DNA from: the human T2T-CHM13v2.0 reference genome, Homo sapiens
Assembly: GCF_009914755.1 (NCBI RefSeq)
Contig: NC_060930.1
Strand: one strand, 5' to 3'
Length of the DNA: 64,000 nucleotides
Of this stretch, positions 62,336 through 64,000 are shown piece by piece. The notes below the pieces were generated by a model that saw nothing but the letters and a program-made list of their open reading frames with translations, was not told where the DNA came from and searched no databases. A program made the position numbers and the translations under genes. Position 1 is the first letter of the stretch. Every line of letters starts with the position of its first letter.

Positions 62336-62560
62336 TTACTACAAAATGTCTTTTCAAAGTCACCAAAGCTCACCATGCTGCAATTTGTTAGAGGGTTAAT
62401 TTTTAAAATTATAATGGTGCTTGGTAAATCTCCTTGAATTAATGAGTCTTGCAGAATTATGGCTGATGTGAAAAGGTATATAGTTAGCATCTGTTTGTTC
62501 TGTGCATATATCTCTCTTCCATGCTGTACATATATTTTAAGGAACATTTCTTTGGGTGCT
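62336..62560 (+). repeat. Left (source) arm of a 225-bp inverted repeat
   Basis: Reverse complement aligns ungapped to 63586-63810 with 5 mismatches (aligned by hand). Confidence 0.97.
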
Positions 62561-62879
62561 GTGTTTTTTTCTATTTATGTCTTCACCATAAAAATATAAA
62601 TAGATCATTTATCTCCGGTATCCTTAAAGTAGCTTGCATCACTTCACTCTTTTAAACTTTTACATAACCAAAGTTTCTGTCCCCAGTACACATTGTTTGG
62701 AAGATTTGAGTGGTTGGGGGCAACCCTGGAACCCTGAGGCAAGCTTCTGGTGACCCTTGAGGTTTACATGCAGGGCCAGGAGCTGAGGGTGCAGGCTGCT
62801 GGGGGCTTCATTCCCAGGAACACCGTGAAGGATACTGTGGTGTTCGCCCTACCTGGCACCAGACCAGATATTATACTTA

Positions 62880-63080
62880 ATGCTTAATATACGATATCTC
62901 ATTTAAACTGATGGCAACTCAATAAAGTGAATACTGCAGCTATTACCATTTTATAGATGAGAAAACCAAGGCTTAGAGAACTGAGTAACTTGTCCTCAGT
63001 CCACACAAGTAGGTAAGTGGCAAAGCTGGGATTGAACCCCCAGTCCATGTGATTCTAGAGCCCGTACTCTTATCCGCTAG
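62880..63080 (-). mobile_element. MIR (inside the inverted-repeat loop)
   Basis: ccattttatagatgagaaaaccaaggcttagaga…agtaacttgtcc…gtaagtggcaaagctgggattgaaccc. Confidence 0.85.
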
Positions 63081-63546
63081 GCTGTGTAGGATAGACTGAT
63101 GGGGACCCACAGGCCAAGTTTGGCAGATGTGGTCTAGGGTTGCTCATGAGTTGAAAGCAGTAATTGTTGGTGAGTGAGGCCTAAAAATATCCTTCTCATT
63201 GCCTTTTTGATAAAAAGACCCCAGACTTTTTCTGAGAAGGGGCTTCTTAGATTTCCTACAGGTACTTTGATCATTGGGAAAGGTTCAGGTGACAATCGTA
63301 TTATAGGGCAAGCAAGGGAAAGGGCCCCACTGCCGGACCCATTTTCTTTCCTGTTAGGAAACCTTTCTAACTAAGGTCAGAGGACCGAGCCTGGGGTTTT
63401 AAAAGAATTCACGGAGCAAAAGTGCAGGGGCATTCAGGAGGGGGACATGGAATGTGGCACGGTACCAGCAGTAGGCCGAGAGATGTCACCTGAATCTTCA
63501 AGGTCTAATGGTAGTTATCCTGGTACCGATGTCAAAGTGGGCCACA

Positions 63547-64000
63547 TTTCTTTTTTTTTTTTTTTTTTTGAGACAGAGTCTCAAAAGCACCCAAAGAAAT
63601 GTTCCTTAAAATATATGTACATCATGGAAGAGAGATATATGCACAGAACAAACAGATGCTAACTATATACCTTTTCACATCAGCCATAATTCTGCAAGGC
63701 TCATTAATTCAAGGAGATTTACCAAGCACCATTATAATTTAAAAAATTAACCCTCTAACAAATTGCGGCATGGTGAGCTTTGGTGACTTTGTAAAGACAT
63801 TTTGTAGTAACTTTGTCTGGAGTGCAGAGGTGCGATCTCAGCTCACTGCAAGCTCCCCCTCCCGGGTTCACGCCATTCTCCTGACTCAGCCTCCCGAGTA
63901 GCTGGGACTACAGGCACCCGCCACCACGCCCGGCCAATTTTTGTATTTTTAGTAGATGGGGTTTCACCGTGTTAGCCAGGATGGTCTCGATCTCCTCACC
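63547..64000 (-). mobile_element. AluY, interrupted by the inverted insertion and running off the window end
   Basis: AluY diagnostics gcaagctcc…cccgggttcacgccattctcc and gtgttagccaggatggtctcgatctcct. Confidence 0.92.
63586..63810 (-). repeat. Right arm of the 225-bp inverted repeat; insertion interrupting an AluY
   Basis: Flanked by Alu sequence on both sides: T-tract-gagacagagtctc upstream, ctggagtgcagaggtgcgatctc downstream. Confidence 0.97.

What the first reader, a model, noticed from the sequence alone, without database searches (positions are those of the whole stretch)
62336..63820. 225-bp inverted templated insertion of nearby unique sequence into an AluY
Seen: 63586-63810 is the ungapped reverse complement of 62336-62560 (220/225, 97.8%). 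The arms are separated by 1025 bp. The copy sits inside an antisense AluY between …gagacagagtctc and ctggagtgcag…, where consensus has gctctgtcgcccagg. It has no poly(A) and no TSD. The left junction carries extra AAA. The right junction reads ctttgtc, resembling both Alu ctctgtc and the source continuation gtctgtc, so there is possible microhomology. Inference: a repair-associated templated insertion (template switching/MMBIR or polymerase-theta end joining) with a small Alu deletion. It must be no older than the AluY; ~2% arm divergence suggests great-ape age. A template switch during the Alu's own insertion is an alternative.
Basis: partly seen in the sequence, partly recalled or inferred. 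Interest (0 to 1): 0.8.

Follow-up and report, generated by a model that had tools for sequence, protein, structure and literature searches.

The report
Inverted local copy inside an Alu
A 232-base stretch of unique FARS2 intron was copied backwards into a neighbouring Alu element, apparently when a DNA polymerase lost its template at a small hairpin at the Alu's tail, an ordinary kind of mutation in an unusually large and clear example.

Summary
Window 63586-63810 is the ungapped reverse complement of 62336-62560 with 5 mismatches in 225. Extended to 62329/63817 it has 7 in 232. The spacer is 1025 nt. The arm occurs only at these two places in the 3.1-Gb assembly.

The copy sits in a full-length antisense AluY-like element with a T19 tail and a 17-nt target-site duplication matching 16/17. 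It replaces 16 Alu bases, 13 nt in from the tail.

New here: the "extra AAA" completes a palindrome, TTTT-GAGAC-AGA-GTCTC-AAAA. This fits snap-back copying of the Alu's own T-run.

Genome-wide, an A-run after this Alu motif occurs 56 times per 71,373 intact sites. Two other Alu positions give 4/133,291 and 1/190,923.

One of the 56 (chr4, L043) carries a second 200-nt templated insertion at the same spot, copied from about 1.3 kb away in direct orientation.

Best reading (~0.58): serial DNA-polymerase template switching after Alu integration. Main rival (~0.25): template switching during the Alu's own retrotransposition. No primate orthologues were available to decide between them. It is a new member of a known kind and of moderate interest.

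The parts
62329..62560 (+). Source arm: unique FARS2 intron sequence that served as template. The certain core is 62336-62560; 62329-62335 is ambiguous.
   Evidence: inverted pair; only two places in the 3.1-Gb genome. 34% G+C, 0 CpG.
62561..63533 (+). Most of the 1025-nt spacer between the arms (62561-63585), up to the Alu's target site. No rearrangement was detected in it.
   Evidence: A T7 run at 62565-62571 lies 4 nt beyond the point where copying began.
63534..63550 (+). Left copy of the Alu's 17-nt target-site duplication, AAAGTGGGCCACATTTC.
   Evidence: The right copy, AAAGTGGGACACATTTC, is at 64067-64083, outside the window (L002 1982-1998). They match 16/17.
63551..63569 (-). Alu A-tail, read as T19 on the + strand. 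Proposed template for the junction A's.
   Evidence: run of 19 T; T-run 19 for L047, this locus.
63570..63582 (-). The 3'-terminal 13 nt of the Alu, GAGACAGAGTCTC. It is a quasi-palindrome: GAGAC and GTCTC pair around a 3-nt loop. It is the last Alu sequence before the insert.
   Evidence: The flanks extend the palindrome to TTTTGAGAC-AGA-GTCTCAAAA, 63566-63586.
63583..63585 (+). Junction AAA. With the A at 63586, which also matches T62560, it forms A4.
   Evidence: An A-run after this motif is 26- to 150-fold more frequent than after two other Alu motifs.
63586..63817 (+). Inverted templated copy of 62329-62560. The last 7 nt (63811-63817, CTTTGTC) match the source 5/7 and the deleted Alu bases 6/7.
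   Evidence: Having 2 of the 7 mismatches fall in those last 7 nt has p = 0.017 under a uniform spread.
63818..64000 (-). Remainder of the antisense AluY-like element. It continues to 64066, beyond the window.
   Evidence: Over 262 retained nt, against the majority of 29 near copies, there are 11 CpG transitions (a 12th only against a consensus I recall), 6 other substitutions and 2 small deletions.

Best explanation
After this AluY had integrated, a DNA strand being synthesised rightwards on the + strand lost its template just after the Alu's terminal 13-mer. The cause could have been a stalled or collapsed fork, or a resected break.

Proposed steps:
1. The 3' end GTCTC snapped back onto GAGAC 3 nt upstream and copied three or four T's of the Alu tail, giving AAA(A).
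2. The end then re-annealed about 1 kb upstream to + strand DNA (the same resected or nascent strand, or the lagging-strand template).
3. It copied 225-232 nt from 62560 down to 62336/62329, making two errors near the end.
4. It returned to the Alu 16 nt further on.

The product is a 3-2-1-4 type template-switch insertion with two successive switches.

Shown: the anatomy, the uniqueness of the arm, the direction of copying, and the recurrence of A-runs at this motif. Inferred: which polymerase acted, whether a break or a fork was involved, and that the event followed Alu integration.
For: 1. The insert interrupts a complete Alu that keeps its tail and a 16/17 target-site duplication. The two Alu parts are collinear.
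2. The arm is found at only 2 places in the genome, 1025 nt apart.
3. The junction A's complete a perfect 9-bp palindrome with the Alu's T-run. This is what snap-back synthesis predicts (SD-MMEJ model, PMC5728401, passages).
4. Genome-wide, TTTTTGAGACRGAGTCTC is followed by AAAA 56 times, against 71,373 with the native continuation. Two other Alu 18-mers give 4/133,291 and 1/190,923 (Fisher p 2e-21 and 9e-31). The same motif followed by TTTT occurs 13 times.
5. In 35 of the 56, the same Alu resumes within 50 nt after A4-A9.
6. A second locus (L043, chr4) has T20-13mer-AAAAAGA followed by a copy of sequence 1.25-1.47 kb away. BLAST aligns 200 nt at 96% (8 mismatches). The insert is found at only 2 places in the genome.
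7. The L043 copy is in direct orientation. DNA-templated switching accommodates that. An RNA template would need opposite transcript orientations relative to the Alu at the two loci.
8. A-run loci are enriched for the decayed CpG in the 13-mer loop: 41 of 56, against 49.8% of 71,373 (p = 3e-4); 26 of 37 in the strict class (p = 0.009). That is expected if events accumulate with Alu age, and not if they arise at integration.
9. The arms differ less than the Alu's own non-CpG divergence predicts. The estimated age ratio is 0.32-0.47, one-sided p 0.06-0.15.
10. Template-switch events of this geometry, up to 318 bp, are documented in human genomes (PMC5453318 and 10.1101/2021.11.26.470150, passages).
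Against: - The age test is not significant for this locus (p 0.06-0.15). L043 is compatible with insert and Alu being the same age (p = 0.36). The two loci combined give p 0.07-0.12.
- The Alu counts rest on a majority of 29 copies that were chosen for likeness to this Alu.
- The break lies only 13 nt from the point where first-strand cDNA synthesis began. The strand that grew is the cDNA strand. That fits the retrotransposition rival.
- L043 lost no Alu base. That looks like a polymerase excursion and return, not end joining, and could equally be a reverse transcriptase.
- The return junction is not explained. Use of the TCTGTC microhomology would have kept GCCCAGGC, which is missing.
- Gene conversion between the arms could make them look young.
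- The CpG-decay enrichment could reflect a sequence preference rather than age.
- No outgroup sequence was available.
Confidence: 0.58

Rival explanations
1. The insert arose during the Alu's own target-primed reverse transcription. After copying the A-tail and 13 nt of Alu RNA, the nascent cDNA (the + strand) folded on its palindrome and was extended on its own T-run. It then switched to a nearby template, either + strand DNA or nascent FARS2 pre-mRNA of the same sense. Finally it jumped back to the Alu RNA 16 nt further on, and the insertion finished normally with a target-site duplication.
For: - The break is 13 nt from the start of cDNA synthesis. The growing strand is the cDNA strand, and the Alu is otherwise full length with a 17-nt duplication.
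- On the Alu-sense strand the insert has the sense of FARS2, so a pre-mRNA template is geometrically possible (and the hub annotation).
- In L043 the arm and Alu divergences are compatible with equal age, and no Alu base was lost.
- Experimental L1 expression gave template-switched insertions. [quoted passage not shown]
Against: - It needs two internal switches that return to the same RNA. The experimental cases were attributed to processing of the reciprocal DNA end, not to the interior of the retrocopy near its 3' end.
- A-run loci are enriched for decayed loop CpG (p 3e-4 and 0.009). Events at integration would not predict that.
- The arms at this locus look younger than the Alu, weakly (p 0.06-0.15).
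- An RNA template does not explain why the source is only 1 kb away, and L043's direct orientation needs a different template strand.
Confidence: 0.25
2. A later double-strand break in the Alu was patched with a reverse-transcribed piece of FARS2 intron RNA, in the manner of a class 2 templated sequence insertion.
For: There is no duplication and no poly(A) around the insert. There is a microdeletion and extra junction bases. The insert has the sense of the host gene on the Alu-sense strand. Class 2 features are as described in PMC5110952 (passages).
Against: - Described donors are distant and scattered over the chromosomes. Here the donor is 1 kb away, and in L043 about 1.3 kb away.
- None of the 7 arm differences is A-to-G in the transcript sense.
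- The junction A's are explained by the Alu's own palindrome.
Confidence: 0.07
3. Several independent events happen to lie together: an A-run insertion, a templated insertion, and one or two small Alu deletions at different times.
For: The last 7 nt fit the Alu (6/7) better than the source (5/7). That would imply a separate 8-nt deletion. The Alu has 2 other small deletions.
Against: A-runs at this motif occur in about 8 per 10,000 intact sites. So chance co-occurrence with a rare 200-nt insertion at the same base, seen twice (here and in L043), is very unlikely.
Confidence: 0.05
4. It is not a real templated insertion. It would instead be a dispersed repeat inserted twice, an assembly artefact, or an inverted duplication left by a staggered-break inversion of the spacer.
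For: None found. A MIR-like repeat lies 90 nt to the left of the source arm.
Against: - The arm matches only its partner in the genome.
- The 5-7 arm differences argue against a collapsed or duplicated assembly.
- Undoing an inversion of the spacer would split the Alu and put its parts in opposite orientations. As it stands, the two parts are collinear between matching duplications.
Confidence: 0.02

Closest known systems
Short-range template-switch mutations (four-point model; PMC5453318, 10.1101/2021.11.26.470150)
   Same: A stretch is replaced by the reverse complement of nearby sequence. The switch-point order is 3-2-1-4, which creates an inverted repeat. The size is within the reported range (longest 318 bp).
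   Different: The source is 1 kb away, and there are two successive switches with extra bases. The model explicitly does not cover multiple rounds. The ancestral state is not known here.
[quoted passage not shown]
   Same: A short inverted 'primer repeat' next to the break (GAGAC/GTCTC, 3-nt loop), short templated synthesis that lengthens the palindrome, and a small deletion.
   Different: The described synthesis is non-processive and uses repeats within about 30 bp. Here a 232-nt tract was copied from 1 kb away, closer to FoSTeS/MMBIR-type switching. No experiment links polymerase theta to this locus.
Class 2 templated sequence insertion polymorphisms (PMC5110952)
   Same: An insertion of a copied genomic segment without duplication or poly(A), with a microdeletion and extra junction bases.
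   Different: Those donors are distant and thought to be RNA-derived. This donor is adjacent. Whether this insert is polymorphic is unknown.
Non-canonical L1-mediated insertions (PMC11702581)
   Same: Template switching by the primary reverse-transcription end, and insertions with extra sequence templated from DNA near the integration site.
   Different: Those extras were ascribed to the reciprocal end. Here the extra sequence lies inside the retrocopy, 13 nt from its tail, with both Alu flanks intact.
L043 (G000 chr4:162369859-162370081), found here
   Same: Same Alu position. An A-run after the 13-mer, a roughly 200-nt unique insert copied from within 1.5 kb, an AluY-like host with 6 non-CpG changes, and an insert found at only 2 places in the genome.
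   Different: The copy is direct and comes from the other side. There is a 6-nt GCTCTG microhomology at the start. No Alu base was lost. The arms are 96% identical.

Membership tests
AluY SINE (host element) | 7SL-derived dimeric element of about 280 nt, similar to other Alu copies | tested here: met
   The 249-nt remainder matches 39 other scored genome copies at 91-93%. Sub-threshold Metazoa_SRP hit on the minus strand (35.7 bits; gathering score 70). 13 + 249 nt retained, against a 281-nt majority sequence.
AluY SINE (host element) | A-tail and target-site duplication from L1-mediated integration | tested here: met
   T19 at 63551-63569. 17-nt duplication, 16/17, at 63534-63550 and 64067-64083.
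AluY SINE (host element) | Subfamily-diagnostic positions of AluY | not testable with these tools
   No Dfam or RepeatMasker. The nearest genome copies and their majority look like what I recall as AluY, but that label is recalled.
Template-switch mutation (four-point model) | The inserted fragment is the reverse complement of nearby sequence | tested here: met
   225-232 nt, 97-98% identical, 1025 nt away.
Template-switch mutation (four-point model) | One switch-and-return explains the whole change | tested here: not met
   The AAA at the first junction, and 2 mismatches or an 8-nt gap at the second, need an additional step.
Template-switch mutation (four-point model) | Derived state polarised by a related genome | not testable with these tools
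   No primate sequence is held. Polarity is inferred only from the interrupted Alu.
Snap-back SD-MMEJ / theta-mediated end joining | Inverted primer repeats at the break, with nascent bases extending the inverted repeat | tested here: met
   TTTTGAGAC-AGA-GTCTCAAAA at 63566-63586. The genome-wide excess of A-runs at this motif supports it.
Snap-back SD-MMEJ / theta-mediated end joining | Microhomology at the final joint | tested here: inconclusive
   1 nt if the copy runs to 63817. The 6/7 likeness of Alu and source bases is present, but the product lacks the 8 nt that its use would have kept.
Snap-back SD-MMEJ / theta-mediated end joining | Dependence on polymerase theta and a double-strand break | not testable with these tools
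   Needs experiment.
Class 2 templated sequence insertion | No duplication and no poly(A); microdeletion and added bases at the junctions | tested here: met
Class 2 templated sequence insertion | Donor from a distant region, RNA-derived | tested here: not met
   The donor is 1025 nt away on the same strand axis. RNA origin is untestable. 0 of 7 differences are A-to-G.
L1-mediated (class 1) insertion of the 225-nt segment itself | Own target-site duplication, poly(A) tail and TTTT/A target | tested here: not met
   The flanks are GAGTCTC-AAA and TGGAGTGCAG, with no duplication. The A's are at the wrong end for a tail.
Inverted duplication from a staggered-break inversion | The segment between the arms is inverted relative to the ancestor | tested here: not met
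   The Alu parts on either side of the copy are collinear and lie between matching duplications.

The most novel reading that the evidence does not exclude
The 13-nt quasi-palindrome at the end of every Alu, sitting next to its A-tail, is a genome-wide hot spot for snap-back template switching. Usually this leaves an A-run with a small deletion or filler: 35 cases among 56 motif hits. Occasionally it escalates into a kilobase-range templated insertion: two cases, here and L043. That builds long, near-perfect inverted repeats that fold as a 232-bp double-stranded RNA stem in a host gene's intron. If part of these events happen during retrotransposition, they would record cDNA self-priming by the L1 reverse transcriptase in vivo.
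Probability: 0.4. Interest if true: 0.6.

Novelty: new member of a known kind. Interest (0 to 1): 0.42.

Why it matters
By itself the locus is a clean, large example of a templated inverted insertion whose every junction can be read. It makes a useful test case for template-switch models.

It also creates a 232-bp, 97%-paired stem in FARS2 pre-mRNA. I recall typical inverted Alu pairs as much less well paired. Such a stem is a possible substrate for RNA editing or double-stranded-RNA sensing, and its arms could mediate inversion of the 1-kb spacer.

The wider point, if it holds, concerns the Alu terminal palindrome. A specific mutational hot spot repeated at roughly a million sites would matter for variant calling in Alus. 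It would also bear on models of how new hairpins arise, and on the question of what happens in the first nucleotides of L1-driven reverse transcription.

Tried and rejected
- Dispersed-repeat reading: rejected. The arm hits only 2 places. Only 62134-62245, to the left of the arm, is a dispersed MIR-like repeat.
- Staggered-break inversion: rejected on the collinearity of the Alu parts.
- L1-mediated insertion of the segment itself: rejected, with no tail and no duplication.
- Known RNA family in the arms: none. Only sub-threshold Alu-derived hits were found.
- Dating the insert against the Alu: inconclusive.
- RNA-editing signature in the arm differences: 0 of 7 are A-to-G. This is uninformative.
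- Survey for other 210-240-nt insertions at the site, using a gapped pattern. It gave 178 hits, almost all ordinary or tandem Alus. Of the 100 listed, only this locus has non-Alu sequence straight after GTCTC. 78 hits were not listed, and the anchors miss L043. So it is not a usable census.
- The idea that the A-run anneals to the T7 run beside the source: the product lacks the intervening CAC, so this is unsupported.
- Prior description of the Alu terminal palindrome as a switch site: not found in 'quasipalindrome' + 'Alu' (6 papers, listing only), in 'ORF2p' + 'Alu' + 'snap-back' (0 papers), or (26 papers, 20 listed). Three word searches do not show that it is unpublished.
- I could not see which RefSeq FARS2 transcript has an exon ending at 63891.
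Full report
**Observation**

The stretch 62000-64000 was read directly. The repeat finder on 61000-64000 reports a single inverted pair, 62329-62560 and 63586-63817. It is 232 nt long, 97% complementary, with 1025 nt between the arms, and there are no direct repeats.

The only amendment is that the copy may be 7 nt longer.

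A sensitive blastn of the arm against the whole window finds nothing else longer than 34 nt.

**Is the arm a repeat family?**

No. The window lies in a held assembly of 3.1 Gb in 24 contigs. The 225-nt arm matches only its own place and its partner.

A 701-nt query (62000-62700) matches about 38 scattered places. All of those matches lie in 62134-62245, a dispersed repeat that looks like MIR (a recalled name). The arm part matches only the partner. The tool warns that its counts of repeats are lower bounds, so very old, diverged copies cannot be excluded.

**The host element**

DNA beyond the window end was read from locus L002. The copy lies in an antisense Alu that is otherwise complete:
- a target-site duplication, AAAGTGGGCCACATTTC, at 63534-63550;
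- a T19 tail at 63551-63569;
- 13 nt of Alu 3' end at 63570-63582;
- the insert;
- 249 nt of Alu at 63818-64066;
- the second duplication copy, AAAGTGGGACACATTTC, at 64067-64083.

The 249-nt part matches 39 other scored genome copies at 91-93%. Rfam gives only sub-threshold hits to SRP RNA and to Alu-derived miRNA families on the minus strand.

I aligned it with 29 of those copies. The majority reads GAGACGGAGTCTC-GCTCTGTCGCCCAGGC-TGGAGTGCAG, and the middle 16 nt are missing here. None of the 29 has an insertion there.

Against that majority, the 262 retained Alu bases show 11 CpG transitions, 6 other substitutions and 2 small deletions. A 12th CpG transition appears only against the consensus I recall. 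The majority is biased, because the copies were picked for likeness to this Alu. 'AluY' is my recalled reading of that majority; no repeat library was available.

**Direction and geometry**

The Alu's flanks and duplication are intact and its two parts are collinear. So the Alu-borne arm is the copy and 62329-62560 is the source.

The Alu's tail reads as T's on the + strand. The + strand is therefore the strand that was extended rightwards from the nick at integration.

On the + strand the insert is the complement of + strand 62560 down to 62329. The template was therefore a molecule with + strand sequence. Candidates are the same strand 1 kb upstream, the equivalent strand of a sister duplex or fork arm, or FARS2 pre-mRNA, since FARS2 is on the + strand according to the hub annotation.

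**Left junction**

The 13-mer GAGACAGAGTCTC is a quasi-palindrome: GAGAC and GTCTC pair around a 3-nt loop. With the junction A's, the present sequence is a perfect palindrome, TTTTGAGAC-AGA-GTCTCAAAA, at 63566-63586.

The simplest source of the 'extra AAA' is therefore not untemplated addition. More likely the 3' end GTCTC snapped back on GAGAC and copied the Alu's own T-run. This is the step described for snap-back synthesis-dependent end joining (PMC5728401, passages), and classically for quasi-palindrome template switching (cited in PMC5453318, passages).

**Is that step recurrent?**

| Motif | Followed by AAAA | Native continuation |
|---|---|---|
| TTTTTGAGACRGAGTCTC (Alu terminal 13-mer with T-run) | 56 | 71,373 |
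| ATCTCRGCTCACTGCAAS (first control) | 4 | 133,291 |
| CCTCCCRAGTAGCTGGGA (second control) | 1 | 190,923 |

- The rates differ 26-fold and 150-fold (Fisher p 2e-21 and 9e-31).
- The reversed-pattern control for the terminal motif plus AAAA gave 0 hits.
- The same motif followed by TTTT occurs 13 times. Most of these look like small deletions into the Alu's own T-rich bases.

I fetched all 56 places. They fall into four groups:
- 35: the same antisense Alu resumes within 50 nt after A4-A9. There may or may not be a few filler bases, and anywhere from none to about 135 Alu bases are lost. L097 was placed in this group by eye.
- 8: an independent Alu lies downstream.
- 9: no Alu lies downstream within the fetched piece.
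- 4: a long gap with no second Alu end. These are this locus, L043, L090 (another repeat, by eye) and L095 (a GGAA microsatellite).

With the strict count of 37 (35 plus this locus and L043), the enrichment is still 17-fold and 99-fold.

Several of the 35 carry small inverted copies of the Alu's own next bases after the A-run, namely L049, L082 and L094. I judged that by eye.

**A second long case**

L043 (chr4:162369859-162370081, minus strand) reads T20-GAGACGGAGTCTC-AAAAAGA. It is followed by a copy of chr4:162368407-162368606, then CTCCTT, then TGCCCAGGCTGGAGTCC and the rest of the Alu.
- BLAST aligns 200 nt at 96%, with 8 mismatches.
- The source lies 1.25-1.47 kb away and the copy is in direct orientation.
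- The insert occurs only at those two places in the genome.
- Its first six bases, GCTCTG, are also the Alu's next six bases. So the switch used a 6-nt microhomology and no Alu base was lost.
- Its Alu differs from the majority at 18 of 260 positions, 7 of them scored non-CpG. One of those 7 is a position where the similarity-biased majority shares this Alu's own variant. I count it as the consensus I recall, which leaves 17 differences and 6 non-CpG.

So the same Alu base launched a 200-nt local templated insertion twice, each time with an A-run.

**Right junction**

The last 7 nt before the Alu resumes, CTTTGTC, match the source continuation 5/7 and the deleted Alu bases CTCTGTC 6/7.
- Two of the seven mismatches fall in these 7 nt, which has p = 0.017 if mismatches were spread evenly.
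- A 6/7 likeness between Alu and source at this register has p = 0.0013 at a fixed alignment. Some role for the TCTGTC microhomology is therefore likely.
- But if it had been used, GCCCAGGC would have been kept, and it is missing.

I could not resolve this. Either the copy runs to 63817, with two polymerase errors and a 16-nt Alu loss, or it ends at 63810 and the Alu lost 1 + 8 nt.

**When did it happen?**

For this locus I used the ratio of non-CpG changes: 4-6 in 2 x 223-230 arm sites, against 6 in about 216 Alu sites, or 7 with the duplication included. That puts the insert at 0.32-0.47 of the Alu's age. The one-sided probability under equal age is only 0.06-0.15.

L043 is compatible with equal age (p = 0.36). 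The two loci together give 0.07-0.12.

A separate line of evidence is the CpG in the 13-mer's loop. It has decayed to CA in 49.8% of 71,373 native sites. It has decayed in 41 of the 56 A-run sites (p = 3e-4) and in 26 of the strict 37 (p = 0.009).
- Events made at integration should share the background decay.
- Events that accumulate with time should sit in older Alus.

This favours a post-integration origin for the class. A sequence preference for the A variant is not excluded.

From divergence figures that I recall, not from any call, 1.1-1.5% per lineage suggests roughly 10-15 million years, with a several-fold error. The Alu's 2.8% suggests an age near the ape/Old World monkey split.

**Mechanism**

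I rank a DNA-polymerase serial template switch after Alu integration first, at about 0.58. It consists of a snap-back on the palindrome, a long-range switch within about 1 kb, and a return. It could be fork-based or the repair of a resected break.

It fits the 3-2-1-4 geometry of the four-point model, which creates inverted repeats (PMC5453318, passages). Its size lies within the reported range, whose longest case is 318 bp (10.1101/2021.11.26.470150, passages). That model does not treat successive switches.

The main rival, at about 0.25, is the same chain of switches made during the Alu's own target-primed reverse transcription. In its favour:
- the break is 13 nt from the start of cDNA synthesis, on the cDNA strand;
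[quoted passage not shown] The authors, however, ascribed those to the reciprocal end.

An RNA patch of the class 2 kind (PMC5110952, passages) fits the junctions but not the adjacent donor. I give it about 0.07. Independent coincident events, artefact, a repeat family or a staggered-break inversion are unlikely, for the reasons given above.

**Consequence**

The FARS2-sense transcript of 62325-63820 folds with the two arms forming one long stem around the 1-kb loop. The minimum free energy is -715.9 kcal/mol, and the stem is kept in the centroid structure. No shuffle control is offered at this length.

Whether the stem is edited, sensed or spliced was not testable here. The papers on hairpin creation by template switching (PMC10710096, 10.1101/2021.04.15.439925) and on predicted human double-stranded RNAs (PMC11838218) were seen only as search listings with the start of the abstract.

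**Verdict**

The locus is a new, unusually large member of a known class. The added value is the palindrome-templated junction, a second locus with the same anatomy, and statistical evidence that the Alu terminal palindrome is a recurrent switch site. The decisive test, primate orthologues, could not be run here.

Noticed in passing
G000 genome-wide; loci L033-L062 and L077-L102: An A-run (A4-A9) directly after the Alu terminal 13-mer occurs 56 times per 71,373 intact sites. In 35 of these the same Alu resumes within 50 nt, often with a few to tens of Alu bases lost. Two other Alu positions show 4/133,291 and 1/190,923.
   Followed up: yes
L043 (G000 chr4:162369859-162370081); source at chr4:162368407-162368606: A second AluY-like element with a 200-nt unique templated insertion at the same Alu base. 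It is preceded by AAAAAGA and copied in direct orientation from 1.25-1.47 kb away, with a 6-nt GCTCTG microhomology and no Alu loss.
   Followed up: yes
L049, L082, L094 (after the A-run): The filler after the A-run looks like a reverse-complement copy of the Alu's own following bases, that is, small local template switches. Judged by eye only.
   Followed up: no
L034, L035, L037, L039, L057, L058: Tiny units made of a T-run, the 13-mer and an A-run, with no attached Alu body. They could be extreme 5'-truncated Alu insertions or self-primed abortive products. Not analysed.
   Followed up: no
window 62134-62245: A dispersed repeat with about 38 scattered genome matches at 77-95% identity. It looks like a MIR core (recalled name) and lies 90 nt left of the source arm. 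62900-63080 looks similar by eye.
   Followed up: partly
window 63885-63936 (minus strand), 63809-63868, 63956-64000: Sub-threshold Rfam hits to mir-1268, mir-3135 and mir-1285 inside the Alu. These are Alu-derived families and all hits are below the gathering score.
   Followed up: no
window 63577-63891: The hub annotation lists exons of other FARS2 transcripts reaching 63891, inside this Alu. The antisense Alu offers a T-run followed by GAGACAG, a possible acceptor. If an exon starts there, it would contain the whole inverted copy. No transcript table was available.
   Followed up: no
window 62565-62571: A T7 run lies 4 nt beyond the point where copying of the source began. An A-tailed primer could have annealed there, but the product lacks the intervening bases.
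   Followed up: partly
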